A stretch of DNA of 64,000 nucleotides, taken from the NCBI GenBank assembly GCA_039621445.1, contig CP154954.1:17080589-17144588 (forward strand), read 5' to 3'. The position numbers and the translations under genes are program-made. Of this stretch, positions 181 to 61,056 are shown in pieces. The notes beneath the pieces were generated by a model. The model saw nothing but the letters and a program-made list of their open reading frames with translations, was not told the DNA's origin and did not search any database. This stretch comes from Euglena gracilis (Eukaryota). Numbering within the stretch: position 1 is the first letter of the stretch; each line of letters opens with the position of its first letter.

Positions 181-342
181 TTATATTATGTTATATTATA
201 CCATATTATATTATATTACATTACATCAATTGTATTACATTAATTATCTTACATTTTGTTATATTATATTATATTATATTACATTCTATTGTGTTATAGG
301 ATATTATATTATAGTATAGTATATTATATTATATTATATTGT
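181..342. repeat. AT-rich (TTATA)n-type degenerate microsatellite
   Basis: Repeated ttata/ttaca/atatt pentamers visible directly. Confidence 0.85.
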
Positions 343-401
343 GTGTTGTATTTTGTTGGCTGCCGCCACATAGTGTGGAAGTAAAACCATTTTTGCCCCA
401 G

Positions 402-580
402 GCCCACGCTTTGTGTTGAACTCCGTGCTTGACGCAATGGCCAAGACCCCCAACCTGGGGACGAAGACGGGCAAGGGTTTCTATTCTTATGACTCCAAGG
501 GCAAGCAGGGGGAGCTGGAGAAGGACACCCTCAAGAAGTTCGGTGCCTTGACAGGGGACGAGAAGTTCAACTATGATGAG
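402..580 (+). CDS. Internal exon of a 3-hydroxyacyl-CoA dehydrogenase / fatty-acid beta-oxidation multifunctional enzyme (FadB/FadJ/HADHA-like), C-terminal region
   Basis: Acceptor ttttgccccag|GC at 401/402 and donor GAG|gtgcga at 580/581. Translation (G)PRFVLNSVLDAMAKTPNLGTKTGKGFYSYDSKGKQGELEKDTLKKFGALTGDEKFNYDE contains the LGxKxGKGFYxY motif typical of the 3HCDH C-terminal domain. Codons are GC3-rich. Confidence 0.85.
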
Positions 581-910
581 GTGCGAACTGCTGCAGAGAT
601 TCCTTTTGGACAGAATATAATAGGCCGAAAACTGTTTCAAAAAAAGACAAATGGCAGTTGCATGGATGGGAGTAGAGGGTGACTACTCTGACAGCATTAT
701 TATCCATGACTAAAAGGTAGAGATACTGGCCGGAAAATGGGGCGAGATTGTGACGTGGATGTTTACATGAATGCAGAACAGCAATGGTGTCAACAAAGGT
801 GTCCACACGGGCCAAACTGGGTTTGGAGGGAGCCCAACCTGGGACGAAGGGTTGGGGGACGGGCAGTTGCTGAATTGGTGTTGGCGGGGGCGGACGGATG
901 GTGTCCTCCT

Positions 911-986
911 GGCAGCGGTGACGACCCCCAAGTCCCCAGAGTCATCGCATGATGGATGGTCAAACCTCAGAGAAGTCTGAGCTGCC
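911..986 (+). ncRNA. Box C/D snoRNA A (copy 1 of 22)
   Basis: Perfect terminal stem GGCAGC/GCTGCC. Box C GTGACGA at 918-924 (consensus GTGATGA in copies 2, 4, 5), D' CAGA 937-940, C' ATGATGG 949-955, D CTGA 977-980; 76 nt. Other copies start at about 1801, 2690, 3544, 4431, 5287, 6144, 7032, 7893, 8751, 9633, 10490, 11350, 12208, 13063, 13920, 14777, 15635, 16489, 17346, 18205, 19061. Confidence 0.88.
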
Positions 987-1169
987 CCCCGGAGGATTGT
1001 TCCCGGTTGGGTGGGGTGTGGGCTGGGCCGGGGTCGACATTGGTTTCGCTTTTAGCGCACACGAAATCGCACAGCACAACAGGTGCGCACGCACACGGGC
1101 GCAGAGACACAGACCGAGACCGAGGCGGGAAGGGGGGTTGGGGAGGAGGTGTGGTGACCAACCCGCATG

Positions 1170-1246
1170 GGGGCTCGATGATGCCAACCCACAAGTCTTC
1201 TGCTCTGTGATGCACATCTCAACTTGGTCGATGCTACTGAGGCCCC
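1170..1246 (+). ncRNA. Box C/D snoRNA B (copy 1 of 22)
   Basis: Terminal stem GGGGCT/GGCCCC (one G-U pair). Box C ATGATGC 1178-1184, degenerate D' CTGC 1200-1203, C' GTGATGC 1207-1213, D CTGA 1237-1240; 77 nt. Present once per unit. Confidence 0.8.
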
Positions 1247-1306
1247 TGGAACACCTGTTTGGTCGTGTTCCCGCACGACAGGTGATTTTTTTTCAGGGCT
1301 GATTGG

Positions 1307-1380
1307 GGCCCATCCATTTCTGTTACAGCCTGCGCATTGGACGGGTGACGTTGCTGGCTGGAAAATGGGGGTTGAGAGGG
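1307..1380 (+). ncRNA. Single-hairpin H/ACA-like (AGA box) guide RNA C (copy 1 of 22)
   Basis: Lower stem GGCCC..CCAT/ATGG.GGGTT, an internal loop, upper stem CAGCC/GGCTG. AGA at 1375-1377 lies 1 nt after the stem and 14 nt from the upper stem. Confidence 0.6.
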
Positions 1381-1457
1381 CTGGCCGCGGGGTGTGGCTG
1401 CGTGGAATGGCGGCTGTTTTGGCCGCAGTCACTCCAGTGAGCAGGAGGCAGGGCCAT

Positions 1458-1520
1458 GGGTGGTTGGCTCACCACCAGCTCCGTGTTGGTGGTAAGTTTT
1501 CTTCACGCAAAAAAACCACA
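1458..1520 (+). ncRNA. Possible additional hairpin guide RNA D (weak; AAA instead of AGA box)
   Basis: Strong upper stem ACCACCAGC/GTTGGTGGT flanked by unpaired arms TTGGCTC and AAGTTTTCT. Weak lower stem GTGG/TCAC. An A-run begins 15 nt after the upper stem. Confidence 0.3.
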
Positions 1521-1580
1521 TTCATCCACACCCACAAACACTGTGTGGTTGTGGGTTGGTGTGGGGGGGGGGGGGTGGCA

Positions 1581-1643
1581 GCCTTAATATCCTCCAGCAC
1601 GCCAATCCGATGGTGCTGCTGGCCGGAAAATGGGGCGAGATTG
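1581..1643 (+). ncRNA. Single-hairpin H/ACA-like (AGA box) guide RNA E (first of 21 complete copies)
   Basis: Lower stem GCCTTA/TGGGGC, pocket ATATCCT / CCGGAAAA, upper stem CCAGCA-CGCCA/TGGTG-C-TGCTGG. AGA at 1638-1640 lies 1 nt after the stem and 15 nt from the top of the pocket; ~63 nt. Confidence 0.75.
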
Positions 1644-4600
1644 TGACGTGGATGTTTACATGAATGCAGAACAGCCATGGTGTCAACAAAGGGTGCACGG
1701 GCCAAACTGGGTTTGGAGGGAGCCCAACCTGGGACGAAGGGTTGGGGGACAGGCAGTTGCTGAATTGGTGTTGGCGGGGGCGGACGGATGGTGTCCTCCT
1801 GGCAGCGGTGATGACCCCCAAGTCCCCAGAGTCATCGCATGATGGATGGTCAAACCTCAGAGAAGTCTGAGCTGCCCCGGAGGATTGTTCCCGGTTGGGT
1901 GGGGTGTGGGCTGGGCCGGGGTCGGCATTGGTTTCGCTTTTAGCGCACACGAAATCGCACAGCACAACAGGTGCGCATGCACACGGGCGCAGAGACACAG
2001 ACCCAGACCCAGGCGGGAAGGGGGTTGGGGAGGAGGTGTGGTGGCCAACCCGCATGGGGGCTCGATGATGCCAACCCACAAGTCTTCTGCTCTGTGATGC
2101 ACATCTCAACTTGGTCGATGCTACTGAGGCCCCTGGAACACCTGTTTGGTCGTGTTCCCGCACGACAGGTGATTTTTTTTCAGGGCTGATTGGGGCCCAT
2201 CCATTTCTGTTACAGCCTGCGCATTGGACGGGTGACGTTGCTGGCTGGAAAATGGGGGTTGAGAGGGCTGGCCGCGGGGTGTGGCTGCGTGGAATGGCGG
2301 CTGTTTTGGCCACAGTCACTCCAGTGAGCAGGAGGCAGGGCCATGGGTGGTTGGCTCACCACCAGCTCCGTGTTGGTGGTAAGTTTTCTTCACGCAAAAA
2401 AACCACATTCATCCACATCCACAAACACTGTGTGGTTGTGGGTTGGTGTGGGGGGGGGGGGGGGGGGCAGCCTTAATATCCTCCAGCACGCCAATCCGAT
2501 GGTGCTGCTGGCCGGAAAATGGGGCGAGATTGTGACGTGGATGTTTACATGAATGCAGAACAGCCATGGTGCCAACAAAGGGTGCACGGGCCAAACTGGG
2601 TTTGGAGGGAGCCCAACCTGGGACGAAGGGTTGGGGGACGGGCAGTTGCTGAATTGGCGTTGGCGGGGGCGGACGGATGGTGTCCTCCTGGCAGCGGTGA
2701 CGACCCCCAAGTCCCCAGAGTCATCGCATGATGGATGGTCAAACCTCAGAGAAGTCTGAGCTGCCCCCCGGAGGATTGTTCCCGGTTGGGTGGGGTGTGG
2801 GCTGGGCCGGGGTCGGCATTGGTTTCGCTTTTAGCGCACACGAAATCGCACAGCACAACAGGTGCGCACAGGCGGGAAGGGGGGTTGGGGAGGAGGTGTG
2901 GTGGCCAACCCGCATGGGGGCTCGATGATGCCAACCCACAAGTCTTCTGCTCTGTGATGCACATCTCAACTTGGTCGATGCTACTGAGGCCCCTGGAACA
3001 CCTGTTTGGTCGTGTTCCCGCACGACAGGTGTTTTTTTTTTTTTTTTTATTGGGGCCCATCCATTTCTGTTACAGCCTGCGCATTGGACGGGTGACGTTG
3101 CTGGCTGGAAAATGGGGGTTGAGAGGGCTGGCCGCGGGGTGTGGCTGCGTGGAATGGCGGCTGTTTTGGCCGCAGTCACTCCAGCGAGCAGGAGGCAGGG
3201 CCATGGGTGGTTGGCTCACCACCAGCTCCGTGTTGGTGGTAAGTTTTCTTCACGCAAAAAAACCACATTCATCCACATCCACAAACACTGTGTGGTTGTG
3301 GGTTGGTGTGGGGGGGGGTGGCAGCCTTAATATCCTCCAGCACGCCAATCCGATGGTGCTGCTGGCCGGAAAATGGGGCGAGATTGTGACGTGGATGTTT
3401 ACATGAATGCAGAACAGCCATGGTGTCAACAAAGGGTGCACGGGCCAAACTGGGTTTGGAGGGAGCCCAACCTGGGACGAAGGGTTGGGGGACGGGCAGT
3501 TGCTGAATTGGTGTTGGCGGGGGCGGACGGATGGTGTCCTCCTGGCAGCGGTGATGACCCCCAAGTCCCCAGAGTCATCGCATGATGGATGGTCAAACCT
3601 CAGAGAAGTCTGAGCTGCCCCGGAGGATTGTTCCCGGTTGGGTGGGGTGTGGGCTGGGCCGGGGTCGGCATTGGTTTCGCTTTTAGCGCACACGAAATCG
3701 CACAGCACAACAGGTGCGCATGCACACGGGCGCAGAGACACAGACCCAGACCCAGGCGGGAAGGGGGTTGGGGAGGAGGTGTGGTGGCCAACCCGCATGG
3801 GGGCTCGATGATGCCAACCCACAAGTCTTCTGCTCTGTGATGCACATCTCAACTTGGTCGATGCTACTGAGGCCCCTGGAACACCTGTTTGGTCGTGTTC
3901 CCGCACGACAGGTGATTTTTTTTTCAAGGCTGATTGGGGCCCATCCATTTCTGTTACAGCCTGCGCATTGGACGGGTGACGTTGCTGGCTGGAAAATGGG
4001 GGTTGAGAGGGCTGGCCGCGGGGTGTGGCTGCGTGGAATGGCGGCTGTTTTGGCCACAGTCACTCCAGTGAGCAGGGGGCAGGGCCATGGGTGGTTGGCT
4101 CACCACCAGCTCCGTGTTGGTGGTAAGTTTTCTTCACGCAAAAAAACCACATTCATCCACATCCACAAACACTGTGTGGTTGTGGGTTGGTGGGGGGGGG
4201 GGGGGTGGCAGCCTTAATATCCTCCAGCACGCCAATCCGATGGTGCTGCTGGCCGGAAAATGGGGCGAGATTGTGACGTGGATGTTTACATGAATGCAGA
4301 ACAGCCATGGTGTCAACAAAGGGTGCACGGGCCAAACTGGGTTTGGAGGGAGCCCAACCTGGGACGAAGGGTTGGGGGACGGGCAGTTGCTGAATTGGTG
4401 TTGGCGGGGGCGGACGGATGGTGTCCTCCTGGCAGCGGTGATGACCCCCAAGTCCCCAGAGTCATCGCATGATGGATGGTCAAACCTCAGAGAAGTCTGA
4501 GCTGCCCCCCGGAGGATTGTTCCCGGTTGGGTGGGGTGTGGGCTGGGCCGGGGTCGGCATTGGTTTCGCTTTTAGCGCACACGAAATCGCACAGCACAAC

Positions 4601-7600
4601 AGGTGCGCACAGGCGGGAAGGGGGGTTGGGGAGGAGGTGTGGTGGCCAACCCGCATGGGGGCTCGATGATGCCAACCCACAAGTCTTCTGCTCTGTGATG
4701 CACATCTCAACTTGGTCGATGCTACTGAGGCCCCTGGAACACCTGTTTGGTCGTGTTCCCGCACGACAGGTGATTTTTTTTCAGGGCTGATTGGGGCCCA
4801 TCCATTTCTGTTACAGCCTGCGCATTGGACGGGTGACGTTGCTGGCTGGAAAATGGGGGTTGAGAGGGCTGGCCGCGGGGTGTGGCTGCGTGGAATGGCG
4901 GCTGTTTTGGCCACAGTCACTCCAGTGAGCAGGAGGCAGGGCCATGGGTGGTTGGCTCACCACCAGCTCCGTGTTGGTGGTAAGTTTTCTTCACGCAAAA
5001 AAACCACATTCATCCACATCCACAAACACTGTGTGGTTGTGGGTTGGTGTGGGGGGGGGGGTGGCAGCCTTAATATCCTCCAGCACGCCAATCCGATGGT
5101 GCTGCTGGCCGGAAAATGGGGCGAGATTGTGACGTGGATGTTTACATGAATGCAGAACAGCCATGGTGCCAACAAAGGGTGCACGGGCCAAACTGGGTTT
5201 GGAGGGAGCCCAACCTGGGACGAAGGGTTGGGGGACGGGCAGTTGCTGAATTGGTGTTGGCGGGGGCGGACGGATGGTGTCCTCCTGGCAGCGGTGACGA
5301 CCCCCAAGTCCCCAGAGTCATCGCATGATGGATGGTCAAACCTCAGAGAAGTCTGAGCTGCCCCCCGGAGGATTGTTCCCGGTTGGGTGGGGTGTGGGCT
5401 GGGCCGGGGTCGGCATTGGTTTCGCTTTTAGCGCACACGAAATCGCACAGCACAACAGGTGCGCACAGGCGGGAAGGGGGGTTGGGGAGGAGGTGTGGTG
5501 GCCAACCCGCATGGGGGCTCGATGATGCCAACCCACAAGTCTTCTGCTCTGTGATGCACATCTCAACTTGGTCGATGCTACTGAGGCCCCTGGAACACCT
5601 GTTTGGTCGTGTTCCCGCACGACAGGTGTTTTTTTTTTCCGGGCTGATTGGGGCCCATCCATTTCTGTTACAGCCTGCGCATTGGACGGGTGACGTTGCT
5701 GGCTGGAAAATGGGGGTTGAGAGGGCTGGCCGCGGGGTGTGGCTGCGTGGAATGGCGGCTGTTTTGGCCGCAGTCACTCCAGCGAGCAGGAGGCAGGGCC
5801 ATGGGTGGTTGGCTCACCACCAGCTCCGTGTTGGTGGTAAGTTTTCTTCACGCAAAAAACCACATTCATCCACATCCACAAACACTGTGTGGTTGTGGGT
5901 TGGTGTGGGGGGGGGGGGTGGCAGCCTTAATATCCTCCAGCACGCCAATCCGATGGTGCTGCTGGCCGGAAAATGGGGCGAGATTGTGACGTGGATGTTT
6001 ACATGAATGCAGAACAGCCATGGTGTCAACAAAGGGTGCACGGGCCAAACTGGGTTTGGAGGGAGCCCAACCTGGGACGAAGGGTTGGGGGACGGGCAGT
6101 TGCTGAATTGGTGTTGGCGGGGGCGGACGGATGGTGTCCTCCTGGCAGCGGTGACGACCCCCAAGTCCCCAGAGTCATCGCATGATGGATGGTCAAACCT
6201 CAGAGAAGTCTGAGCTGAGCCCCCCGGAGGATTGTTCCCGGTTGGGTGGGGTGTGGGCTGGGCCGGGGTCGGCATTGGTTTCGCTTTTAGCGCACACGAA
6301 ATCGCACAGCACAACAGGTGCGCATGCACACGGGCGCAGAGACACAGACCCAGACCCAGGCGGGAAGGGGGCTGGGAGGAGGTGTGGTGGCCAACCCGCA
6401 TGGGGGCTCGATGATGCCAACCCACAAGTCTTCTGCTCTGTGATGCACATCTCAACTTGGTCGATGCTACTGAGGCCCCTGGAACACCTGTTTGGTCGTG
6501 TTCCCGCACGACAGGTGATTTTTTTTCAGGGCTGATTGGGGCCCATCCATTTCTGTTACAGCCTGCGCATTGGACGGGTGACGTTGCTGGCTGGAAAATG
6601 GGGGTTGAGAGGGCTGGCCGCGGGGTGTGGCTGCGTGGAATGGCGGCTGTTTTGGCCACAGTCACTCCAGTGAGCAGGAGGCAGGGCCATGGGTGGTTGG
6701 CTCACCACCAGCTCCGTGTTGGTGGTAAGTTTTCTTCACGCAAAAAAACCACATTCATCCACACCCACAAACACTGTGTGGTTGTGGGTTGGTGTGGGGG
6801 GGGGGGTGGCAGCCTTAATATCCTCCAGCACGCCAATCCGATGGTGCTGCTGGCCGGAAAATGGGGCGAGATTGTGACGTGGATGTTTATATGAATGCAG
6901 AACAGCCATGGTGCCAACAAAGGGTGCACGGGCCAAACTGGGTTTGGAGGGAGCCCAACCTGGGACGAAGGGTTGGGGGACGGGCAGTTGCTGAATTGGT
7001 GTTGGCGGGGGCGGACGGATGGTGTCCTCCTGGCAGCGGTGTGACGACCCCCAAGTCCCCAGAGTCATCGCATGATGGATGGTCAAACCTCAGAGAAGTC
7101 TGAGCTGCCCCCCGGAGGATTGTTCCCGGTTGGGTGGGGTGTGGGCTGGGCCGGGGTCGGCATTGGTTTCGCTTTTAGCGCACACGAAATCGCACAGCAC
7201 AACAGGTGCGCACAGGCGGGAAGGGGGGTTGGGGAGGAGGTGTGGTGGCCAACCCGCATGGGGGCTCGATGATGCCAACCCACAAGTCTTCTGCTCTGTG
7301 ATGCACATCTCAACTTGGTCGATGCTACTGAGGCCCCTGGAACACCTGTTTGGTCGTGTTCCCGCACGACAGGTGTTTTTTTTTCAGGGCTGATTGGGGC
7401 CCATCCATTTCTGTTACAGCCTGCGCATTGGACGGGTGACGTTGCTGGCTGGAAAATGGGGGTTGAGAGGGCTGGCCGCGGGGTGTGGCTGCGTGGAATG
7501 GCGGCTGTTTTGGCCGCAGTCACTCCAGCGAGCAGGAGGCAGGGCCATGGGTGGTTGGCTCACCACCAGCTCCGTGTTGGTGGTAAGTTTTCTTCACGCA

Positions 7601-10600
7601 AAAAAACCACATTCATCCACATCCACAAACACTGTGTGGTTGTGGGTTGGTGGGGGGGGGGGGGGGGTGGCAGCCTTAATATCCTCCAGCACGCCAATCC
7701 GATGGTGCTGCTGGCCGGAAAATGGGGCGAGATTGTGACGTGGATGTTTACATGAATGCAGAACAGCCATGGTGTCAACAAAGGGTGCACGGGCCAAACT
7801 GGGTTTGGAGGGAGCCCAACCTGGGACGAAGGGTTGGGGGACGGGCAGTTGCTGAATTGGTGTTGGCGGGGGCGGACGGATGGTGTCCTCCTGGCAGCGG
7901 TGACGACCCCCAAGTCCCCAGAGTCATCGCATGATGGATGGTCAAACCTCAGAGAAGTCTGAGCTGCCCCCCGGAGGATTGTTCCCGGTTGGGGTGGGGG
8001 GGGGCTAGGCCGGGGTCGGCATTGGTTTCGCTTTTAGCGCACACGAAATCGCACAGCACAACAGGTGCGCACAGGCGGGAAGGGGGGTTGGGGAGGAGGT
8101 GTGGTGACCAACCCGCATGGGGGCTCGATGATGCCAACCCACAAGTCTTCTGCTCTGTGATGCACATCTCAACTTGGTCGATGCTACTGAGGCCCCTGGA
8201 ACACCTGTTTGGTCGTGTTCCCGCACGACAGGTGATTTTTTTTCAGGGCTGATTGGGGCCCATCCATTTCTGTTACAGCCTGCGCATTGGACGGGTGACG
8301 TTGCTGGCTGGAAAATGGGGGTTGAGAGGGCTGGCCGCGGGGTGTGGCTGCGTGGAATGGCGGCTGTTTTGGCCGCAGTCACTCCAGTGAGCAGGAGGCA
8401 GGGCCATGGGTGGTTGGCTCACCACCAGCTCCGTGTTGGTGGTAAGTTTTCTTCACAAAAAAAACCCCCATTCATCCCCCCCCACAACCGTTGGGGGGTT
8501 GGGGGTTGGGGGGGGGGGGGGGGGGTGGCAGCCTTAATATCCTCCAGCACGCCAATCCGATGGTGCTGCTGGCCGGAAAATGGGGCGAGATTGTGACGTG
8601 GATGTTTACATGAATGCAGAACAGCCATGGTGTCAACAAAGGGTGCACGGGCCAAACTGGGTTTGGAGGGAGCCCAACCTGGGACGAAGGGTTGGGGGAC
8701 GGGCAGTTGCTGAATTGGTGTTGGCGGGGGCGGACGGATGGTGTCCTCCTGGCAGCGGTGACGACCCCCAAGTCCCCAGAGTCATCGCATGATGGATGGT
8801 CAAACCTCAGAGAAGTCTGAGCTGCCCCGGAGGATTGTTCCCGGTTGGGTGGGGTGTGGGCTGGGCCGGGGTCGGCATTGGTTTCACTTTTAGCGCACAC
8901 GAAATCGCACAGCACAACAGGTGCGCATGCACACGGGCGCAGAGACACAGACCCAGACCCAGGCGGGAAGTGGGGTGGGAGGAGGTGTGGTGACCAACCC
9001 GCATGGGGGCTCGATGATGACAACCCACAAGTCTTCTGCTCTGTGATGCACATCTCAACTTGGTCGATGCTACTGAGGCCCCTGGAACACCTGTTTGGTC
9101 GTGTTCCCGCACGACAGGTGATTTTTTTTCAGGGCTGATTGGGGCCCATCCATTTCTGTTACAGCCTGCGCATTGGACGGGTGACGTTGCTGGCTGGAAA
9201 ATGGGGGTTGAGAGGGCTGGCCGCGGGGTGTGGCTGCGTGGAATGGCGGCTGTTTTGGCCGCAGTCACTGCAGCGAGCAGGAGGCAGGGCCATGGGTGGT
9301 TGGCTCACCACCAGCTGCGTGTTGGTGGTAAGTTTTCTTCACGCAAAAAAACCACATTCATCCACATCCACAAACACTGTGTGGTTGTGGGTTGGTGTGG
9401 GGGGGGGTGGCAGCCTTAATATCCTCCAGCACGCCAATCCGATGGTGCTGCTGGCCGGAAAATGGGGCGAGATTGTGACGTGGATGTTTACATGAATGCA
9501 GAACAGCCATGGTGTCAACAAAGGGTGCACGGGCCAAACTGGGTTTGGAGGGAGCCCAACCTGGGACGAAGGGTTGGGGGACGGGCAGTTGCTGAATTGG
9601 TGTTGGGGGGGGCGGACGGATGGTGTCCTCCTGGCAGCGGTGACGACCCCCAAGTCCCCAGAGTCATCGCATGATGGATGGTCAAACCTCAGAGAAGTCT
9701 GAGCTGCCCCCCGGAGGATTGTTCCCGGTTGGGTGGGGTGTGGGCTGGGCCGGGGTCGGCATTGGTTTCGCTTTTAGCGCACACGAAATCGCACAGCACA
9801 ACAGGTGCGCACAGGCGGGAAGGGGGGTTGGGGAGGAGGTGTGGTGGCCAACCCGCATGGGGGCTCGATGATGCCAACCCACAAGTCTTCTGCTCTGTGA
9901 TGCACATCTCAACTTGGTCGATGCTACTGAGGCCCCTGGAACACCTGTTTGGTCGTGTTCCCGCACGACAGGTGTTTTTTTTTCAGGGCTGATTGGGGCC
10001 CATCCATTTCTGTTACAGCCTGCGCATTGGACGGGTGACGTTGCTGGCTGGAAAATGGGGGTTGAGAGGGCTGGCCGCGGGGTGTGGCTGCGTGGAATGG
10101 CGGCTGTTTTGGCCGCAGTCACTCCAGCGAGCAGGAGGCAGGGCCATGGGTGGTTGGCTCACCACCAGCTCCGTGTTGGTGGTAAGTTTTCTTCACGCAA
10201 AAAAACCACATTCATCCACATCCACAAACACTGTGTGGTTGTGGGTTGGTGGGGGGGGGGGGGGTGGCAGCCTTAATATCCTCCAGCACGCCAATCCGAT
10301 GGTGCTGCTGGCCGGAAAATGGGGCGAGATTGTGACGTGGATGTTTACATGAATGCAGAACAGCCATGGTGTCAACAAAGGGTGCACGGGCCAAACTGGG
10401 TTTGGAGGGAGCCCAACCTGGGACGAAGGGTTGGGGGACGGGCAGTTGCTGAATTGGTGTTGGCGGGGGCGGACGGATGGTGTCCTCCTGGCAGCGGTGA
10501 CGACCCCCAAGTCCCCAGAGTCATCGCATGATGGATGGTCAAACCTCAGAGAAGTCTGAGCTGCCCCCCGGAGGATTGTTCCCGGTTGGGTGGGGTGTGG

Positions 10601-13600: not shown

Positions 13601-16600
13601 CGTGTTGGTGGTAAGTTTTCTTCACGCAAAAAAACCACATTCATCCACACCCACAAACACTGTGTGGTTGTGGGTTGGTGTGGGGGGGGGGGGGTGGCAG
13701 CCTTAATATCCTCCAGCACGCCAATCCGATGGTGCTGCTGGCCGGAAAATGGGGCGAGATTGTGACGTGGATGTTTACATGAATGCAGAACAGCCATGGT
13801 GTCAACAAAGGGTGCACGGGCCAAACTGGGTTTGGAGGGAGCCCAACCTGGGACGAAGGGTTGGGGGACGGGCAGTTGCTGAATTGGTGTTGGCGGGGGC
13901 GGACGGATGGTGTCCTCCTGGCAGCGGTGACGACCCCCAAGTCCCCAGAGTCATCGCATGATGGATGGTCAAACCTCAGAGAAGTCTGAGCTGCCCCCCG
14001 GAGGATTGTTCCCGGTTGGGTGGGGTGTGGGCTGGGCCGGGGTCGGCATTGGTTTCGCTTTTAGCGCACACGAAATCGCACAGCACAACAGGTGCGCACA
14101 GGCGGGGAAGGGGGGTTGGGGAGGAGGTGTGGTGACCAACCCGCATGGGGGCTCGATGATGCCAACCCACAAGTCTTCTGCTCTGTGATGCACATCTCAA
14201 CTTGGTCGATGCTACTGAGGCCCCTGGAACACCTGTTTGGTCGTGTTCCCGCACGACAGGTGTTTTTTTTTCAGGGCTGATTGGGGCCCATCCATTTCTG
14301 TTACAGCCTGCGCATTGGACGGGTGACGTTGCTGGCTGGAAAATGGGGGTTGAGAGGGCTGGCCGCGGGGTGTGGCTGCGTGGAATGGCGGCTGTTTTGG
14401 CCGCAGTCACTCCAGCGAGCAGGAGGCAGGGCCATGGGTGGTTGGCTCACCACCAGCTCCGTGTTGGTGGTAAGTTTTCTTCACGCAAAAAAACCACTTT
14501 CTTCTACACCTCCAAACACTGTGTGTTTGTGGGTTGGTGGGGGGGGGGGGGTGGCAGCCTTAATATCCTCCAGCACGCCAATCCGATGGTGCTGCTGGCC
14601 GGAAAATGGGGCGAGATTGTGACGTGGATGTTTACATGAATGCAGAACAGCCATGGTGTCAACAAAGGGTGCACGGGCCAAACTGGGTTTGGAGGGAGCC
14701 CAACCTGGGACGAAGGGTTGGGGGACGGGCAGTTGCTGAATTGGTGTTGGCGGGGGCGGACGGATGGTGTCCTCCTGGCAGCGGTGACGACCCCAAGTCC
14801 CCAGAGTCATCGCATGATGGATGGTCAAACCTCAGAGAAGTCTGAGCTGCCCCCCGGAGGATTGTTCCCGGTTGGGTGGGGTGTGGGCTGGGCCGGGGTC
14901 GGCATTGGTTTCGCTTTTAGCGCACACGAAATCGCACAGCACAACAGGTGCGCACAGGCGGGAAGGGGGGTTGGGGAGGAGGTGTGGTGACCAACCCGCA
15001 TGGGGGCTCGATGATGCCAACCCACAAGTCTTCTGCTCTGTGATGCACATCTCAACTTGGTCGATGCTACTGAGGCCCCTGGAACACCTGTTTGGTCGTG
15101 TTCCCGCACGACAGGTGTTTTTTTTCAGGGCTGATTGGGGCCCATCCATTTCTGTTACAGCCTGCGCATTGGACGGGTGACGTTGCTGGCTGGAAAATGG
15201 GGGTTGAGAGGGCTGGCCGCGGGGTGTGGCTGCGTGGAATGGCGGCTGTTTTGGCCGCAGTCACTCCAGCGAGCAGGAGGCAGGGCCATGGGTGGTTGGC
15301 TCACCACCAGCTCCGTGTTGGTGGTAAGTTTTCTTCACGCAAAAAAACCACATTCATCCACATCCACAAACACTGTGTGGTTGTGGGTTGGTGTGGGGGG
15401 GGGGGGGGGGGGCAGCCTTAATATCCCCCAGCACGCCAATCCGATGGTGCTGCTGGCCGGAAAATGGGGCGAGATTGTGACGTGGATGTTTACATGAATG
15501 CAGAACAGCCATGGTGTCAACAAAGGGTGCACGGGCCAAACTGGGTTTGGAGGGAGCCCAACCTGGGACGAAGGGTTGGGGGACGGGCAGTTGCTGAATT
15601 GGTGTTGGCGGGGGCGGACGGATGGTGTCCTCCTGGCAGCGGTGACGACCCCCAAGTCCCCAGAGTCATCGCATGATGGATGGTCAAACCTCAGAGAAGT
15701 CTGAGCTGCCCCCCGGAGGATTGTTCCCGGTTGGGTGGGGTGTGGGCTGGGCCGGGGTCGGCATTGGTTTCGCTTTTAGCGCACACGAAATCGCACAGCA
15801 CAACAGGTGCGCACAGGGGAAGGGGGTTGGGGAGGAGGTGTGGTGGCCAACCCGCATGGGGGCTCGATGATGCCAACCCACAAGTCTTCTGCTCTGTGAT
15901 GCACATCTCAACTTGGTCGATGCTACTGAGGCCCCTGGAACACCTGTTTGGTCGTGTTCCCGCACGACAGGTGTTTTTTTTTCAGGGCTGATTGGGGCCC
16001 ATCCATTTCTGTTACAGCCTGCGCATTGGACGGGTGACGTTGCTGGCTGGAAAATGGGGGTTGAGAGGGCTGGCCGCGGGGTGTGGCTGCGTGGAATGGC
16101 GGCTGTTTTGGCCGCAGTCACTCCAGTGAGCAGGAGGCAGGGCCATGGGTGGTTGGCTCACCACCAGCTCCGTGTTGGTGGTAAGTTTTCTTCACGAAAA
16201 AAAACCACATTCATCCACATCCACAAACACTGTGTGGTTGTGGGTTGGTGTGGGGGGGGGGGGTGGCAGCCTTAATATCCTCCAGCACGCCAATCCGATG
16301 GTGCTGCTGGCCGGAAAATGGGGCGAGATTGTGACGTGGATGTTTACATGAATGCAGAACAGCCATGGTGTCAACAAAGGGTGCACGGGCCAAACTGGGT
16401 TTGGAGGGAGCCCAACCTGGGACGAAGGGTTGGGGGACGGGCAGTTGCTGAATTGGTGTTGGCGGGGGCGGACGGATGGTGTCCTCCTGGCAGCGGTGAC
16501 GACCCCCAAGTCCCCAGAGTCATCGCATGATGGATGGTCAAACCTCAGAGAAGTCTGAGCTGCCCCCCGGAGGATTGTTCCCGGTTGGGTGGGGTGTGGG

Positions 16601-19600
16601 CTGGGCCGGGGTCGGCATTGGTTTCGCTTTTAGCGCACACGAAATCGCACAGCACAACAGGTGCGCACAGGCGGGAAGGGGGGTTGGGGAGGAGGTGTGG
16701 TGACCAACCCGCATGGGGGCTCGATGATGCCAACCCACAAGTCTTCTGCTCTGTGATGCACATCTCAACTTGGTCGATGCTACTGAGGCCCCTGGAACAC
16801 CTGTTTGGTCGTGTTCCCGCACGACAGGTGTTTTTTTTTCAGGGCTGATTGGGGCCCATCCATTTCTGTTACAGCCTGCGCATTGGACGGGTGACGTTGC
16901 TGGCTGGAAAATGGGGGTTGAGAGGGCTGGCCGCGGGGTGTGGCTGCGTGGAATGGCGGCTGTTTTGGCCGCAGTCACTCCAGCGAGCAGGAGGCAGGGC
17001 CATGGGTGGTTGGCTCACCACCAGCTCCGTGTTGGTGGTAAGTTTTCTTCACGCAAAAAAACCACATTCTTCCGCGCCCCCCAGCTCTGTGTGGTTGTGG
17101 GTTGGTGTGGGGGGGGGGGGTGGCAGCCTTAATATCCTCCAGCACGCCAATCCGATGGTGCTGCTGGCCGGAAAATGGGGCGAGATTGTGACGTGGATGT
17201 TTACATGAATGCAGAACAGCCATGGTGTCAACAAAGGGTGCACGGGCCAAACTGGGTTTGGAGGGAGCCCAACCTGGGACGAAGGGTTGGGGGACGGGCA
17301 GTTGCTGAATTGGTGTTGGCGGGGGCGGACGGATGGTGTCCTCCTGGCAGCGGTGACGACCCCCAAGTCCCCAGAGTCATCGCATGATGGATGGTCAAAC
17401 CTCAGAGAAGTCTGAGCTGCCCCCCGGAGGATTGTTCCCGGTTGGGTGGGGTGTGGGCTGGGCCGGGGTCGGCATTGGTTTCGCTTTTAGCGCACACGAA
17501 ATCGCACAGCACAACAGGTGCGCACAGGCGGGAAGTGGGGTGGGAGGAGGTGTGGTGACCAACCCGCATGGGGGCTCGATGATGCCAACCCACAAGTCTT
17601 CTGCTCTGTGATGCACATCTCAACTTGGTCGATGCTACTGAGGCCCCTGGAACACCTGTTTGGTCGTGTTCCCGCACGACAGGTGTTTTTTTTTCAGGGT
17701 TGATTGGGGCCCATTCATTTATGTTTAAGTCTGTGGATTGGAGGTGTGACGTTGCTGGCTGGAAATTGGGGGTTGTGATGGGTGGCAGGGGGGTGTGTGG
17801 CTGCGTGGAATGGCGGCTGTTTTGGCCGCAGTCACTCCAGCGAGCAGGAGGCAGGGCCATGGGTGGTTGGCTCACCACCAGCTCCGTGTTGGTGGTAAGT
17901 TTTCTTCACGCAAAAAAACCACATTCATCCACACCCACAAACACTGTGTGGTTGTGGGTTGGTGTGGGGGGGGGGGGGGGGGCAGCCTTAATATCCTCCA
18001 GCACGCCAATCCGATGGTGCTGCTGGCCGGAAAATGGGGCGAGATTGTGACGTGGATGTTTACATGAATGCAGAACAGCCATGGTGTCAACAAAGGGTGC
18101 ACGGGCCAAACTGGGTTTGGAGGGAGCCCAACCTGGGACGAAGGGTTGGGGGACGGGCAGTTGCTGAATTGGTGTTGGCGGGGGCGGACGGATGGTGTCC
18201 TCCTGGCAGCGGTGACGACCCCCAAGTCCCCAGAGTCATCGCATGATGGATGGTCAAACCTCAGAGAAGTCTGAGCTGCCCCCCGGAGGATTGTTCCCGG
18301 TTGGGTGGGGTGTGGGCTGGGCCGGGGTCGGCATTGGTTTCGCTTTTAGCGCACACGAAATCGCACAGCACAACAGGTGCGCACAGGCGGGAAGGGGGGT
18401 TGGGGAGGAGGTGTGGTGACCAACCCGCATGGGGGCTCGATGATGCCAACCCACAAGTCTTCTGCTCTGTGATGCACATCTCAACTTGGTCGATGCTACT
18501 GAGGCCCCTGGAACACCTGTTTGGTCGTGTTCCCGCACGACAGGTGTTTTTTTTTCAGGGCTGATTGGGGCCCATCCATTTCTGTTACAGCCTGCGCATT
18601 GGACGGGTGACGTTGCTGGCTGGAAAATGGGGGTTGAGAGGGCTGGCCGCGGGGTGTGGCTGCGTGGAATGGCGGCTGTTTTGGCCGCAGTCACTCCAGC
18701 GAGCAGGAGGCAGGGCCATGGGTGGTTGGCTCACCACCAGCTCCGTGTTGGTGGTAAGTTTTCTTCACGCAAAAAAACCACATTCATCCACACCCACAAA
18801 CACTGTGTGGTTGTGGGTTGGTGTGGGGGGGGGGGTGGCAGCCTTAATATCCTCCAGCACGCCAATCCGATGGTGCTGCTGGCCGGAAAATGGGGCGAGA
18901 TTGTGACGTGGATGTTTACATGAATGCAGAACAGCCATGGTGTCAACAAAGGGTGCACGGGCCAAACTGGGTTTGGAGGGAGCCCAACCTGGGACGAAGG
19001 GTTGGGGGACGGGCAGTTGCTGAATTGGTGTTGGCGGGGGCGGACGGATGGTGTCCTCCTGGCAGCGGTGACGACCCCCAAGTCCCCAGAGTCATCGCAT
19101 GATGGATGGTCAAACCTCAGAGAAGTCTGAGCTGCCCCCCGGAGGATTGTTCCCGGTTGGGTGGGGTGTGGGCTGGGCCGGGGTCGGCATTGGTTTCGCT
19201 TTTAGCGCACACGAAATCGCACAGCACAACAGGTGCGCACAGGCGGGAAGGGGGGTTGGGGAGGAGGTGTGGTGACCAACCCGCATGGGGGCTCGATGAT
19301 GCCAACCCACAAGTCTTCTGCTCTGTGATGCACATCTCAACTTGGTCGATGCTACTGAGGCCCCTGGAACACCTGTTTGGTCGTGTTCCCGCACGACAGG
19401 TGTTTTTTTTTCAGGGCTGATTGGGGCCCATCCATTTCTGTTACAGCCTGCGCATTGGACGGGTGACGTTGCTGGCTGGAAAATGGGGGTTGAGAGGGCT
19501 GGCCGCGGGGTGTGGCTGCGTGGAATGGCGGCTGTTTTGGCCGCAGTCACTCCGGTGAGCAGGAGGCAGGGCCATGGGTGGTTGGCTCACCACCAGCTCC

Positions 19601-21775
19601 GTGTTGGTGGTAAGTTTTCTTCACGCAAAAAAACCACATTTGCATATTTGTACCGGGTCTTCCCCCTCGGGACTGTACCCTGGCCTCCGCCCTGCGGCAC
19701 CCCACGTCGTCCTCCCTTCCTCCAGCCTCTTTGCACCAAGTGGAACGGGGTGCTTTGGGTTGGGGCTGGCCTCTTCTGGGGAGCGACCTTCTGGGGACTG
19801 CTGCGAGGCCACAGTTGACAGCCCTCGTCCGCTGCCGTTTTGAGGTGGTCGGGTGGTCGAGTGGTTGAAGTGGTTTTGAGGTGGTGTATATTGGTGCATA
19901 TGTGTATTTGGATGTGTACGTACCCAAACCGTGACCATCTAATTTTATTGAAAAAAATAAGCCCCCAAATGATATTCCCCCTCTGCCAAGGGATGATGAT
20001 ACCCCCATCTGGGAGGGGGTATTATTTGGCAAAGCATTTTGTCTGTTTGTTTTGGATGCAAAACTTTGGTCACGGAATGTGTTGCATCTATCTTGAACAG
20101 TTCCTCCACCTCCCCCGCCCCCCGGCGCTTGGCCCCCCTCCTCCTTACATGCAAACTTGGCTCCCCAAAGCTGCAAAGTTGGCCTTCATTCTTCATGGCC
20201 GCCAAACTTCTTAACAATGAAACTTGGCAACCATGGGCCTTACCTTCGCTTTGGTTCGAGCTTGGCCCGGGCCAAGCGCCCCAGGAGGGGGGAGGTATTA
20301 AAATCCATGGCAGGTGCAGTTTTTTGTCTCAGAAACGTGCAACACGGTGCAAACCGCATAACATTTGCACAAAAAATATGGTTCCTGTTCTTAGGATAAC
20401 TCGTTTTCTCTGCGGCGGTCAGTGAAAGAATGGATAACATGTTGAAAGTCGGGTCCCTGGGTGGGGGATGTTGCTTGGGGTAGGTGCGATTCGGGCAAAG
20501 GGGAGAAACTGAGTTGGTGCTGGGCTGAGAAGAGGTGGAAGGTCCCACCCACCGGATGGCTACCGCCCAGACAAGGTGGTCTCTGCCCCCCCTCCGTGCC
20601 CCTCCACCCCGTCGTACGAGTCGGCCCGCCAGTCGGGTACAGCTTCCGACGCACCGCCTCACAGCGATGCTGCCCCTGACCCTGTGGCGTGCGTGTGATG
20701 GGCTTCGATGGCCATGGTGTGCTGGGCCTTTGGGGTTGAGGTCCCCCCCCCCCCCCAAATGAACCCCCCAAAATAAGAGCCCCCCCCCCTTCCAGGTCCC
20801 CTGGTGCCTGAGACGGTGAAAGTTTTCCCTGAAAATTTACCTAAATCCTCAATTTCAGACAGATGTGATTTCCCAAACCTTAAGAATTTTTCAGTCGCAA
20901 AACACCATGGTAAATGTCAAATGGTGCCAATTTACAAATGACGCAAAGGTCCAAAGATAGAGTTTTGGTATTTTAGGAACCTGGAAAATGATGTTTTTTT
21001 TCGGGCCTAGGTCGATCAAGAAAGAATCCAAAAAATAACTCCCCAAAATACCCTCCCCCCCCTCCTGGAAGTTTCCAGCAATGGGCACAAGAATAAGGCC
21101 TGGGCCTTTTTTTTGGTGGGACTTATTTAAACTGAGCATCTTTGGATTTTCAAAGAATTTCAGGGATTTCCCAACAACTTTGACTTGGTATCCAGCCCTT
21201 TGACTGGCCACAGAGCTGGAAATTTTCCTGGACCTCTTTAAAAGCACCGCTCCTGAACATTTTGGGAGAAAAAAGTCACAGAAATCATTCAGTGGATCAG
21301 GAAAGATTCAAACCAAAAGGACCAAGGAATGAGATAAGCCACACGTCTGATTTTGATGCTCGAGTGCACAGCCGCCTCTGAGCACCACCTCAGGACAAAA
21401 CATGAAAGAAATTGGGACATTTTTCATAAGAAATCATGCATTTCAGGTGAAGTGTGCACATTTCAAGGGAAGCTAGGAGGCACAAAATACTTTTCTGTGG
21501 AATTGATGTTTGACTGCAGTTGATGGAAATGCAGGATCTTCGAAGCCCCCCAAAAGGCTGAAGTTCCCTAAACCCCCTCCTCCTTGGCAAAAAAAACAAC
21601 TAAAGTGACCTGGCGCCAAAGGAGCCGATTCTTTTGGCCGTTCTTTTTTTTCTGCGTTTGTGGGAGTGGCCCCCACCAGTGACTGATTGGGAAGGGTGGA
21701 AGTGAGCCCCCGGGGTCGGTAAAGGATGTGTGGTCTGGTATGTAGTAGGCTGCCCCATCCCCCCCCCCCCCACAG

Positions 21776-25079: not shown

Positions 25080-26012
<933 letters not shown>

Positions 26013-41642: not shown

Positions 41643-42025
41643 AAGTGGTCAATGATACAGTGTGGAGGCCGATTGATGCTGGTCTGGTCTGTTTTTTTTC
41701 TCTCTCCAATGCTACCGTGCCGTTGAGACAGCGTGTCTTTGACCCCCCCCCCCGTGCCAACGACACTTTCCTGGAACATTGGCGTGCCAACGACAAGGGG
41801 GGGGGGTGTGGGTGCGGTGTGGGTATGTTAGCCGGTCTGAAGTTTCTATGCTGATACTCGATGCACCTCGTTCCCATTTGTTCAAGGAAAAGCAGCCTGG
41901 CTGCAACATCACTCCCCGCTCCGTTTTCCCCCCCTTCAGGTCCACAGGCTTCTTGGTGTGTTGGGCGCCTTTTGCAATGAGGCATGCACGCTGTGTTGTT
42001 GGGCATCATGGAAGGCAGGGCACAA

Positions 42026-48213: not shown

Positions 48214-48285
48214 TTAGGGTTAGGGTTAGGGTTAGGGTTAGGGTTAGGGTTAGGGTTAGGGTTAGGGTTAGGGTTAGGGTTAGGG
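48214..48285 (+). repeat. Interstitial telomeric repeat (TTAGGG)12
   Basis: 12 perfect TTAGGG units. Confidence 0.97.
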
Positions 48286-48290
48286 TCAGG

Positions 48291-48740
48291 CAGGGGGGGG
48301 AAATGCAACTTGCATAATTTGCATTTTTTTGCATAATCGGCTTTTCCCGAAATTTGCATTTTTTGCATTTTTTTGCATTTTTTTGCATAAAATATTTTGC
48401 CCTGGAAAAATTGTTTGTAGTTGGTTGCCATATGTTTGGATTTTTTTGCATATTCTTGCATTTTTTGCATAAAATATTTTGCCCTGGAAAAAATTTTTGT
48501 AGTTGGTTGTCATATGTTTGGATTTTTTTGCATTTTTTTGCATTTTTTTGCATAAAATATTTTGCCCTGGAATTTTTTTTTGATTTCAGGCAGCAAAGCT
48601 CTGTTATATTCCAGCTTTTTCTCAGGGTTTTCATGCAAGTTGCATTTTTTTTGCATTTTTTTGCATTTTTTTTGCATTTTTTTGCATTTTTTTGACTTGC
48701 ATAATTTGAAGGGCCAAGTTGCATTCCCCCCCCCCCCCTG
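48291..48740. mobile_element. MITE family D (intact copy)
   Basis: TIR caggggggggaaatgcaactt / aagttgcattcccccccccccctg. Direct repeat ggtcagg on both flanks. Internal (ttttttgca)n and a ~70-80-bp subrepeat present about 3 times. Confidence 0.85.
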
Positions 48741-59261: not shown

Positions 59262-59406
59262 AAGCAAACAAACAAACAAACAAACAAACAAACAAACAAA
59301 CAAACAAACAAACAAACACACAAACAAACAAACAAACAAACAAACAATCAACCAAACAACCAAGCAAGCAAGCAAGCAAGCAAGCCAGCCAGCAAGCCAG
59401 CCAGCC

Positions 59407-59443
<37 letters not shown>

Positions 59444-60523: not shown

Positions 60524-61056
<533 letters not shown>

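What the first reader, a model, noticed from the sequence alone, without database searches (positions are those of the whole stretch)
726..19640. The 19-kb 'satellite' is a tandemly amplified polycistronic snoRNA cluster (2 box C/D + 2-3 AGA-box guides per unit, ~22 units)
Seen: each ~857/888-bp unit has, on the + strand, two ~76-nt segments with terminal stem, C, D', C' and D boxes in the right order (911-986, 1170-1246). It also has two ~63-74-nt single hairpins with an internal pocket and an AGA 1 nt after the stem (1307-1380, 1581-1643). Recurrent length variation sits in the spacers and homopolymers, not in these RNAs. Known: Euglena gracilis and trypanosomatids have mixed C/D and single-hairpin AGA-box guide RNAs in repeated, polycistronically transcribed clusters, so this type of organisation has precedent. 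Inference: this is such a cluster with about 90-110 genes, which ORF finders and repeat maskers would miss. These particular RNAs may be undescribed.
Basis: partly seen in the sequence, partly recalled or inferred. Interest (0 to 1): 0.9.

Follow-up and report, generated by a model that had tools for sequence, protein, structure and literature searches.

The report
Tandem snoRNA gene array in Euglena
A 19-kb block of 22 near-identical repeats in a Euglena genome most likely carries two box C/D guide RNA genes, and perhaps one or two pseudouridine-guide hairpins, per repeat, an arrangement already described for Euglena.

Summary
Window 728-19640 is a head-to-tail array of 22 units: 21 full units of 854-893 bp and one truncated unit, 98.5% alike on average.

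- **Box C/D RNAs.** Every unit has two complete box C/D architectures on the + strand: terminal stem, C, D', C', D. This is far above chance. None of 300 shuffled units gave two, and the other 44 kb of the window gave one candidate on both strands together.
- **Hairpins.** The 1581-1643 hairpin fits the published consensus for euglenozoan single-hairpin AGA-box pseudouridine guides, and only 1 of 200 shuffles folds as well. The 1307-1380 hairpin is weaker. I found no third AGA candidate.
- **Organism.** A flanking exon is 95% identical to a Euglena longa protein, so this is a Euglena.
- **Not shown.** I could not show discrete small RNAs, polycistronic transcription, or guide complementarity to the organism's own rRNA, which I could not obtain. 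rRNAs from other organisms gave nothing significant. One C/D RNA weakly resembles U61.

Clustered, tandemly repeated, polycistronic snoRNA genes are already reported for Euglena gracilis. This is therefore an ordinary example of a known kind. I could not check whether these RNAs are among the more than 200 described.

The parts
728..19640 (+). Tandem array of 22 units (21 full, 854-893 bp; the last is truncated at 19640). It starts inside the 3' half of hairpin 2.
   Evidence: Anchor spacing; unit alignment; junction sequences.
911..986 (+). CD1, a box C/D RNA (unit 1 copy; 22 copies). Layout: stem 911-916/981-986; C 918-924; D' guide 925-936; D' 937-940; C' 950-955; D guide 956-976; D 977-980.
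   Evidence: Sequence; motif scan against shuffles; 3 of 200 shuffles fold as well; weak snoU61 match at 24.6 bits.
1170..1246 (+). CD2, a box C/D RNA (unit 1 copy; 22 copies). Layout: stem 1170-1174/1242-1246, extendable by G-U pairs; C 1178-1184; D' guide 1185-1199; D' 1200-1203; C' 1208-1213; D guide 1214-1236; D 1237-1240.
   Evidence: Sequence; motif scan; only 2 of 77 columns vary among units.
1581..1643 (+). Hairpin 2, the better candidate for a single-hairpin AGA-box pseudouridine guide (21 copies). Layout: stem I 1581-1586/1631-1636; 5' pocket 1587-1593; stem II 1594-1599/1617-1622; 3' pocket 1623-1630; AGA 1638-1640.
   Evidence: Fold z -2.5, 1 of 200 shuffles as good; geometry search; consensus from PMC2613932; 1 of 63 columns varies.
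1307..1380 (+). Hairpin 1, the weaker AGA-box candidate (21 intact copies; the unit 20 copy is degenerate). Layout: stem I 1307-1311/1369-1373; stem II 1326-1330/1356-1360; AGA 1375-1377. It shares a 21-nt 3' half with hairpin 2 (20 of 21 identical).
   Evidence: Fold z -0.6; alignment A1; unit 20 copy has lost the AGA and stem II.
1516..1564 (.). CA/TG-rich palindromic spacer hairpin, followed by a G run of variable length (about 12-17) just upstream of hairpin 2. This is the most length-variable part of the unit.
   Evidence: MFE -26.7 kcal/mol; microRNA-like sub-threshold Rfam matches on both strands; variability line.
1252..1293 (+). Spacer hairpin (1252-1257/1279-1284) followed by a T8 run (1286-1293) just downstream of CD2. 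The T run varies in length among units.
   Evidence: Sequence; fold; variability.
1091..1122 (+). 32-nt spacer segment present only in units 1, 2, 4, 7 and 10. It causes the 888 versus 857 bp size classes.
   Evidence: Unit alignment.

Best explanation
This is a tandemly amplified snoRNA gene cluster of a Euglena species.

Each ~857-bp unit encodes two compact box C/D RNAs on the + strand, CD1 and CD2, each about 76 nt. It probably also encodes one single-hairpin AGA-box pseudouridine-guide RNA (hairpin 2), and possibly a paralogous second one (hairpin 1).

**Inferred mechanism (none of these steps was shown here).**
- The array is transcribed on the + strand into long precursors.
- Nucleases trim the precursors to the protein-protected RNAs.
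- In each C/D RNA the terminal stem brings the C and D boxes together into a kink-turn that recruits fibrillarin.
- The 12-23 nt upstream of D' and D then pair with rRNA and direct 2'-O-methylation of the nucleotide opposite the fifth guide position.
- The hairpin RNA would bind Cbf5 and position a uridine 15 nt upstream of its AGA box.

**Shown:** the array, the motifs and their excess over chance, their lower variability, and the Euglena origin.
For: - **Array.** 22 tandem units, 98.5% alike.
- **C/D architectures, shuffle control.** There are two per unit, with terminal stems of 6 or more pairs, both on the + strand and none on the - strand. Of 300 dinucleotide shuffles of a unit, 0 gave two or more and about 2% gave one or more.
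- **C/D architectures, real-sequence control.** The same scan found 1 candidate in 44,360 nt x 2 strands outside the array.
- **Within-array variation.** Among the 21 full units, 17 of 287 gap-free columns vary inside the four predicted RNAs against 70 of 555 in spacers (Fisher p 0.0026). Twelve of the 17 belong to one decayed hairpin 1 copy in unit 20.
- **Variation against public runs.** In contigs of four runs, 0 of 18 substitution sites fall in the predicted RNAs, which make up 290 of the 871 bases laid.
- **Hairpin 2.** It meets the geometry given for trypanosomatid H/ACA-like RNAs in PMC2613932 (sections read):
  - 63 nt long;
  - stem I of 6 bp;
  - 1 unpaired nt before the AGA;
  - 5' pocket of 7 nt;
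  - perfect 6-bp stem II;
  - 15 nt from stem II to the AGA;
  - an A just upstream of stem I.
  Only 1 of 200 shuffles folds as well.
- **Rfam below threshold.** 6 of 11 matches in one unit are snoRNA families, against 0 of 16 in 24 kb of control sequence. The best C/D match, snoU61, aligns the boxes and the D guide.
- **Organism.** A flanking exon is 95% identical to a protein with a GGOE01 accession. A preprint passage assigns that prefix to Euglena longa.
- **Literature.** Passages say Euglena snoRNA genes are clustered and polycistronically expressed.
Against: - **No target.** No target was found.
  - The organism's own rRNA could not be obtained.
  - Against E. coli rRNA the best contiguous pairing was 9 nt.
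  - Against five eukaryotic rDNA loci, only 1 of 20 guide-locus tests beat shuffles (CD2 D guide against L046, 1 of 500). The rest were ordinary.
  - A metagenome scan for the predicted CD2 D' target gave 6 hits, none of them rRNA.
  - The pocket scans for the two hairpins found no conserved target.
- **Rfam.** No family reaches its gathering score. snoU61 scores 24.6 against 55 bits. The control region gave chance matches with E-values down to 3.4e-07, so sub-threshold E-values are unreliable here.
- **CD1 C box.** It is GUGACGA in 19 of 22 units and the canonical GUGAUGA in only 3. D' (CAGA, CUGC) and C' are degenerate.
- **AGA-hairpin geometry is not specific.** 92 of 200 shuffled units gave at least one such hairpin. 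The scan also reported a spurious one overlapping CD1, and it missed hairpin 1.
- **Weak folds.** Hairpin 1 folds no better than 54 of 200 shuffles, and CD2 no better than 80 of 200.
- **Conservation.** Concerted evolution homogenises arrays, so low variation is weak evidence. The 0-of-18 count is also not independent of the within-array count, because the reference unit (unit 2) is itself a divergent unit.
- **Expression.** Not shown. No run holding the sequence is on record as RNA.
Confidence: 0.72

Rival explanations
1. Only the two box C/D RNAs are genes. The two 'AGA hairpins' are spacer structure, for example processing or recombination-prone elements that share a 21-nt motif, and not pseudouridine guides.
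For: - AGA-hairpin geometry arises by chance in 92 of 200 shuffled units.
- Hairpin 1 folds no better than 54 of 200 shuffles.
- Its 5' pocket strand (12-14 nt) exceeds the 5-11 nt of the published consensus, and a G precedes its stem I.
- No pocket-target match was found in any rRNA available.
- The spacers hold other strong hairpins that are clearly not guides.
Against: - Hairpin 2 meets every geometric criterion read in PMC2613932.
- It folds better than 199 of 200 shuffles.
- It is nearly invariant, with 1 of 63 columns varying.
- Mixed C/D plus H/ACA-like clusters are the rule in trypanosomatids.
Confidence: 0.3
2. The RNAs are the same, but they are expressed from a host-gene intron. The array would lie in the intron that follows the exon at 401-583 of an enoyl-CoA hydratase/3-hydroxyacyl-CoA dehydrogenase gene on the same strand. 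The RNAs would then be cut out of that gene's pre-mRNA and not from an independent transcript.
For: - The exon is on the + strand and ends at a GT 145 nt before the array.
- It is 95% identical over 61 residues to residues 607-667 of a 775-residue E. longa protein.
- That protein has 108 further residues, so at least one downstream exon must exist.
Against: - tblastn found none of residues 668-775 in the 63 kb downstream on either strand. The intron would therefore exceed 63 kb, or the exon is an isolated fragment, or the assembly is misjoined.
- The gene's upstream exons lie outside the window.
Confidence: 0.2
3. The array is an inert satellite: either an amplified block of decayed snoRNA pseudogenes, or a repeat whose box-like motifs arose by chance.
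For: - The CD1 C box is non-canonical in 19 of 22 units.
- No target was found.
- No RNA run is on record.
- One hairpin 1 copy is visibly decaying.
- Homogeneity can come from unequal crossing-over alone.
Against: - Two full C/D architectures per unit were never seen in 300 shuffles, and such candidates are about 100-fold rarer in the rest of the window.
- Substitutions avoid the predicted RNAs.
- All elements share one strand.
Confidence: 0.1

Closest known systems
Euglena gracilis modification-guide snoRNA gene clusters (Moore & Russell 2012, Mol Genet Genomics 287:55; Russell et al. 2004, RNA 10:1034). I saw only citing passages and reference lists. The papers themselves are not held.
   Same: - The genus is the same.
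- Box C/D and candidate single-hairpin guide genes sit close together on one strand in a repeated unit.
- The citing passages describe clustering, polycistronic expression and isoforms.
   Different: - Here a contiguous 22-unit, 19-kb array is seen in its chromosomal context, starting 145 nt after a protein-coding exon.
- I could not test whether CD1, CD2 and the hairpins match published Eg RNAs.
- That the published clusters are tandemly repeated is my recollection, not something I read here.
Trypanosomatid snoRNA clusters and single-hairpin AGA-box H/ACA-like RNAs (PMC2613932, sections read).
   Same: - Mixed C/D and H/ACA-like genes in repeated clusters, processed from polycistronic transcripts.
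- Hairpin 2 fits the stated consensus for size, stem I, spacing to the AGA, pocket and stem II.
   Different: - The lineage is different.
- Hairpin 1 breaks two consensus features.
- No target, Cbf5 dependence or transcript has been shown here.
SNORD61/U61 family (Rfam RF01170, clan CL00067).
   Same: - The CD1 boxes and D guide align to the family consensus.
- The CD1 D guide pairs at 11 of 12 positions with the conserved SSU site ACUUCUUAGAGG in 18 of 18 eukaryotic loci that carry it.
   Different: - The score of 24.6 bits is far below the gathering score of 55.
- The pairing is no better than shuffled guides achieve (134-183 of 500).
- The guide is 1 nt shorter next to box D, so the predicted target nucleotide would shift by one.
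- That U61 directs methylation at this SSU site is recalled, not read here.
Polycistronic and intronic snoRNA clusters of plants and Chlamydomonas (passage in PMC7671301).
   Same: Several guide RNA genes per transcription unit, released by processing.
   Different: - Those clusters are not 20-fold tandem amplifications of one unit.
- Their pseudouridine guides have two hairpins with H and ACA boxes (recalled).

Membership tests
Box C/D methylation-guide snoRNA | C box (RUGAUGA) near the 5' end and D box (CUGA) near the 3' end | tested here: met
   - CD1: GUGACGA in 19 units and GUGAUGA in 3 units, plus CUGA.
- CD2: AUGAUGC (6 of 7) plus CUGA.

Box C/D methylation-guide snoRNA | Terminal stem that brings C and D together | tested here: met
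   CD1 has 6 Watson-Crick pairs. CD2 has 5 Watson-Crick plus up to 3 G-U pairs. No shuffle out of 300 gave two such candidates.
Box C/D methylation-guide snoRNA | Internal D' and C' boxes in the right order | tested here: met
   CD1 has CAGA and UGAUGG; CD2 has CUGC and UGAUGC. Both pairs are degenerate. I ran no separate chance control for the internal boxes.
Box C/D methylation-guide snoRNA | Complementarity of 10 nt or more to rRNA or snRNA ending next to D or D', with a methylated nucleotide opposite guide position 5 | not testable with these tools
   The organism's own rRNA is not available. Other organisms' rRNAs gave no significant match, and the metagenome scan was negative.
Box C/D methylation-guide snoRNA | Stable RNA of about 60-100 nt bound by fibrillarin | not testable with these tools
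   Contigs cannot show RNA ends, and the run types are only guessed.
Euglenozoan single-hairpin AGA-box pseudouridine guide (consensus read in PMC2613932) | Single hairpin of 57-91 nt; stem I of 5-8 bp; 1-3 free nt, then AGA; 13-16 nt from the target site to the AGA; 5' pocket of 5-11 nt; perfect stem II of 3-7 bp | tested here: met
   **Hairpin 2 (1581-1643) meets all of these:** 63 nt, stem I 6 bp, 1 free nt, 15 nt to the AGA, 5' pocket 7 nt, stem II 6 bp.

**Hairpin 1 meets only part:** its distance is 14 nt and stem II is 5 bp, but its 5' pocket is 12-14 nt and stem I holds 2 G-U pairs.

The geometry alone is not specific, since 92 of 200 shuffles gave at least one such hairpin.
Euglenozoan single-hairpin AGA-box pseudouridine guide (consensus read in PMC2613932) | Pocket complementary to rRNA on both sides of a mapped pseudouridine; Cbf5 dependence | not testable with these tools
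   No conserved match was found in E. coli or 54 eukaryotic rDNA loci. The organism's own rRNA and modification map are unavailable.
Tandemly repeated polycistronic snoRNA cluster of Euglenozoa | Several guide RNA genes in one orientation within a unit that is repeated head to tail | tested here: met
   22 units. All candidates lie on the + strand, and there are no C/D candidates on the - strand.
Tandemly repeated polycistronic snoRNA cluster of Euglenozoa | Host is a euglenozoan | tested here: met
   The exon at 401-583 is 95% identical to a GGOE01 protein. That prefix is used for E. longa in a preprint passage.
Tandemly repeated polycistronic snoRNA cluster of Euglenozoa | Transcription across spacers and unit junctions | tested here: inconclusive
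   In four small runs, contigs cover genes and spacers, and one 598-nt contig crosses a unit junction. The runs are only guessed to be RNA, and a high-copy DNA repeat would look the same.
SNORD61/U61 (Rfam RF01170) | Score at or above the family's gathering threshold | tested here: not met
   24.6 bits against 55. There was no match at gathering thresholds anywhere in the window.

The most novel reading that the evidence does not exclude
A 19-kb, 22-unit snoRNA array lies inside a giant intron (over 63 kb) of a fatty-acid beta-oxidation gene, on the same strand. It would be expressed by processing of that host pre-mRNA. That would be an intron-hosted, massively amplified guide RNA factory, which to my recollection is not described for Euglena. 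Its RNAs would guide Euglena-specific modifications, for example a methylation one nucleotide away from the conserved U61 site.
Probability: 0.12. Interest if true: 0.55.

Novelty: new member of a known kind. Interest (0 to 1): 0.3.

Why it matters
Euglena rRNA carries the most modifications known, 349 according to a passage in PMC7672448, so the cell needs a very large supply of guide RNAs. This locus shows, in assembled chromosomal context, how that supply can be encoded: one four-element unit amplified 22 times.

It is also a practical caution for annotation. Repeat maskers would label the block a satellite, ORF finders see nothing, and Rfam finds nothing at its curated thresholds.

The organisation itself is already reported for this genus, so the value is in cataloguing and context and not in a new principle.

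Tried and rejected
1. **Whole genome or own rRNA.** None is held.
2. **Sequencing runs.** No RNA holder is listed. I laid four small runs guessed to be RNA. Whole-unit cover and a junction-spanning contig cannot distinguish RNA from high-copy DNA.
3. **Papers.**
   - Russell 2004, Moore & Russell 2012, Moore 2018 and Sogin 1986 are not held.
   - Supplements were not consulted.
   - Full-text searches for the guide sequences and their predicted targets found nothing relevant. One search gave 0 papers. One search gave 1 paper, an unrelated primer.
4. **Metagenome scan.** I searched for the predicted CD2 D' target followed by a conserved LSU pentamer. It gave 6 loci, none with an rRNA match.
5. 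**Viral-contig scan** with a conserved SSU 3'-end motif: 0 hits.
6. **Prokaryote-assembly scan.** The same motif in prokaryote assemblies gave 54 contaminant eukaryotic rDNA loci. Guide and pocket scans on them were not significant.
7. **CD2 D' guide against E. coli 23S.** The predicted target matches position 761 at 13 of 16 bases, but 9 of 200 shuffles do as well. Eukaryotic LSU at the same site pairs poorly.
9. **Earlier findings of this scan.** Nothing on this genome, and nothing relevant elsewhere.
10. **Copies outside the array.** Only low-complexity matches.
11. **Third AGA RNA or further C/D RNA in the 157-200-nt spacers.** None met the criteria.

Full report
**1. The observation**

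An exact 28-nt anchor occurs 22 times between 728 and 18881, at spacings of 854-893 bp. Aligning the units gives 21 full copies and a last copy cut off at 19640. Mean pairwise identity over gap-free positions is 98.5%, range 95.4-99.9%.

The two size classes come from a 32-nt spacer segment that only units 1, 2, 4, 7 and 10 carry. The other length variation sits in a T run, a G run and a CA-rich stretch. The array begins inside the 3' half of hairpin 2 and ends in the CA-rich spacer. Outside the array, the window has only low-complexity matches to the unit.

**2. The box C/D candidates**

| Element | CD1 (911-986) | CD2 (1170-1246) |
|---|---|---|
| Terminal stem | 911-916 / 981-986, 6 bp | 1170-1174 / 1242-1246, 5 Watson-Crick pairs, extendable by G-U pairs |
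| C box | 918-924 GUGACGA | 1178-1184 AUGAUGC |
| D' guide | 12 nt | 15 nt |
| D' box | CAGA | CUGC |
| D'-C' spacer | 9 nt | 4 nt |
| C' box | UGAUGG | UGAUGC |
| D guide | 21 nt | 23 nt |
| D box | CUGA | CUGA |

- A motif scan of one unit (C-like box, CUGA 40-110 nt downstream, flanking stem) found these two with stems of 6 and 8 pairs, plus one chimera of CD2's C' box with a downstream CUGA (5-pair stem). It found nothing on the - strand.
- Of 300 dinucleotide-preserving shuffles, none gave two candidates with stems of 6 or more, and about 2% gave one.
- In the real sequence right of the array, the same scan gave one candidate in 44,360 nt on both strands together.
- The CD1 C box is the canonical GUGAUGA in units 2, 4 and 5 only. 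The other 19 units have GUGACGA.

**3. The hairpins**

[quoted passage not shown] One free nucleotide then precedes the AGA, and 15 nt separate stem II from the AGA. Only 1 of 200 shuffles folds as well. These values fall inside the consensus for trypanosomatid single-hairpin AGA-box RNAs read in PMC2613932, including an A just upstream of stem I.

*Hairpin 1 (1307-1380).* It shares a 21-nt 3' half with hairpin 2, 20 of 21 identical, and has a 14-nt distance to its AGA. Against it:
- its 5' pocket strand is 12-14 nt;
- its stem I depends on G-U pairs;
- 54 of 200 shuffles fold as well.

*Specificity.* My geometric search for AGA hairpins is not specific. It found at least one in 92 of 200 shuffled units, reported a spurious one overlapping CD1, and missed hairpin 1. 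The hairpins therefore rest on fit and conservation, not on motif statistics. I found no third candidate.

**4. Variation**

- Among the 21 full units, 17 of 287 gap-free columns vary inside the four predicted RNAs, against 70 of 555 in spacers (Fisher p 0.0026).
- Twelve of the 17 are one patch in the unit 20 copy of hairpin 1. That copy has lost its AGA and stem II and folds at -14.8 against -28.4 kcal/mol.
- In contigs of four public runs laid on 1530-2400, 0 of 18 substitution sites fall in the predicted RNAs, which cover 290 of 871 bases. One of 4 indel sites touches the C run at the 3' edge of CD1.
- The second count is not independent of the first, because the reference unit is itself one of the divergent units.
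- Arrays are also homogenised by unequal exchange, so this evidence is supportive but not strong.

**5. Expression**

No run holding the sequence is on record as RNA. Four small runs (50-112 million letters), which the tool only guesses to be RNA, have contigs covering genes and spacers alike at word depths of about 5-41. One 598-nt contig crosses a unit junction. This fits either a polycistronic precursor or a repeat present in hundreds of DNA copies, and I cannot tell which.

**6. Targets**

No genome is held for this window, and I could not obtain Euglena rRNA from any collection or paper. I therefore tested stand-ins.

- **E. coli rRNA.** The best contiguous pairing next to a D or D' box was 9 nt. 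The CD2 D' target resembles 23S position 761 at 13 of 16 bases, but 9 of 200 shuffles do as well.
- **Metagenome scan.** A scan for that predicted target plus a conserved downstream pentamer gave six loci, none of them rRNA.
- **Eukaryotic rDNA.** A conserved SSU 3'-end motif pulled 54 contaminant eukaryotic rDNA loci out of prokaryote assemblies. On five loci with a full SSU and most of the LSU, 1 of 20 guide-locus tests beat shuffles: the CD2 D guide against L046, 15 pairs with 3 G-U, 1 of 500.
- **CD2 D guide.** In most loci it pairs at 13 of 15 positions, with 3-4 G-U pairs, to the conserved SSU stretch just upstream of GUCCCUGCCC.
- **CD1 D guide.** It pairs at 11 of 12 positions with ACUUCUUAGAGG in 18 of 18 loci that carry it. 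Neither this pairing nor the CD2 D pairing exceeds shuffled guides.
- **Hairpin pockets.** They found no conserved site.

**7. Rfam**

Nothing in the window reaches a gathering score. With permissive thresholds, one unit gave 11 matches, six of them to snoRNA families. The best C/D match is snoU61 at 24.6 bits (gathering 55, E 0.008), aligning the boxes and the D guide.

A 24-kb control stretch gave 16 matches, none to a snoRNA family. However, it included chance matches with E-values down to 3.4e-07. The enrichment for snoRNA families is therefore informative, while the E-value is not.

**8. Organism and context**

An open frame at 401-583 (+ strand, AG and GT at its ends) matches the end of the 3-hydroxyacyl-CoA dehydrogenase C-terminal domain. 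It is 95% identical to residues 607-667 of a 775-residue protein with a GGOE01 accession. A preprint passage uses that prefix for Euglena longa. The window is thus from a Euglena close to, but not identical with, E. longa.

The array starts 145 nt after this exon, on the same strand. The remaining 108 residues of the protein are not found in the next 63 kb. An intronic location is therefore possible but unproven.

**9. Comparison with what is known**

Passages I read say the following:
- Modification-guide snoRNA genes are clustered in trypanosomatids and Euglena (PMC2784804).
- Euglena snoRNA genes lie mainly in polycistronic clusters producing isoforms (PMC7671301; PMC8911436).
- More than 200 Euglena snoRNAs were found by RNA-seq (PMC6366073).
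- Euglena ribosomes carry 349 modifications (PMC7672448).

The primary papers are not held, so I could not compare sequences. That the published Euglena clusters are tandemly repeated is my recollection.

**10. Verdict**

- The array is real.
- The two box C/D genes per unit are well supported by anatomy and controls.
- One AGA hairpin is a good candidate and the other a weak one.
- Expression mode and targets remain inferred.

It is an ordinary example of an organisation already reported for this genus, so interest is modest.

Noticed in passing
window 401-583 (+): A single exon of an enoyl-CoA hydratase/3-hydroxyacyl-CoA dehydrogenase gene, 95% identical to residues 607-667 of a Euglena longa protein. 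The exons for residues 668-775 are absent from the 63 kb downstream, and the earlier exons lie left of the window.
   Followed up: partly
window 48211-48290: Thirteen perfect GGGTTA repeats, an interstitial telomere-like tract, next to AT-rich 10-82-nt tandem repeats (48310-48694).
   Followed up: no
window 25121-26013, 59261-60075, 60537-61064: Very long microsatellites: (CA)n of about 890 bp, (CAAC)n of about 815 bp, and (CACA)n of about 530 bp. They cause strong local GC and AT skew.
   Followed up: no
window 181-340: A TTATA pentamer array of about 32 copies, directly upstream of the exon.
   Followed up: no
window 17700-17786 (unit 20): A patch of about 17 substitutions confined to the hairpin 1 copy of one unit, while the rest of that unit stays close to the consensus. 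This could be local decay, or conversion from a diverged copy elsewhere.
   Followed up: partly
window units 1-10 versus 11-21: The long (888-bp) unit variant and most divergent units (44-49 differences from the consensus) lie in the first ten units. Units 11-21 are mostly 1-9 differences from the consensus, except units 12 (16) and 20 (25). This is a gradient of homogenisation along the array.
   Followed up: no
window about 41920-42009 (- strand): The only other C/D-like motif combination with a 6-pair flanking stem in the rest of the window. Its stem is rich in G-U pairs and it is probably chance.
   Followed up: no
runs X11, X12, X18, X20: The longest contig in each of the four small runs is 11.3-11.9 kb. 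That is close to the 11.3-kb size given for the Euglena rDNA circle in PMC7672448. It may hint at what kind of library these runs are.
   Followed up: no
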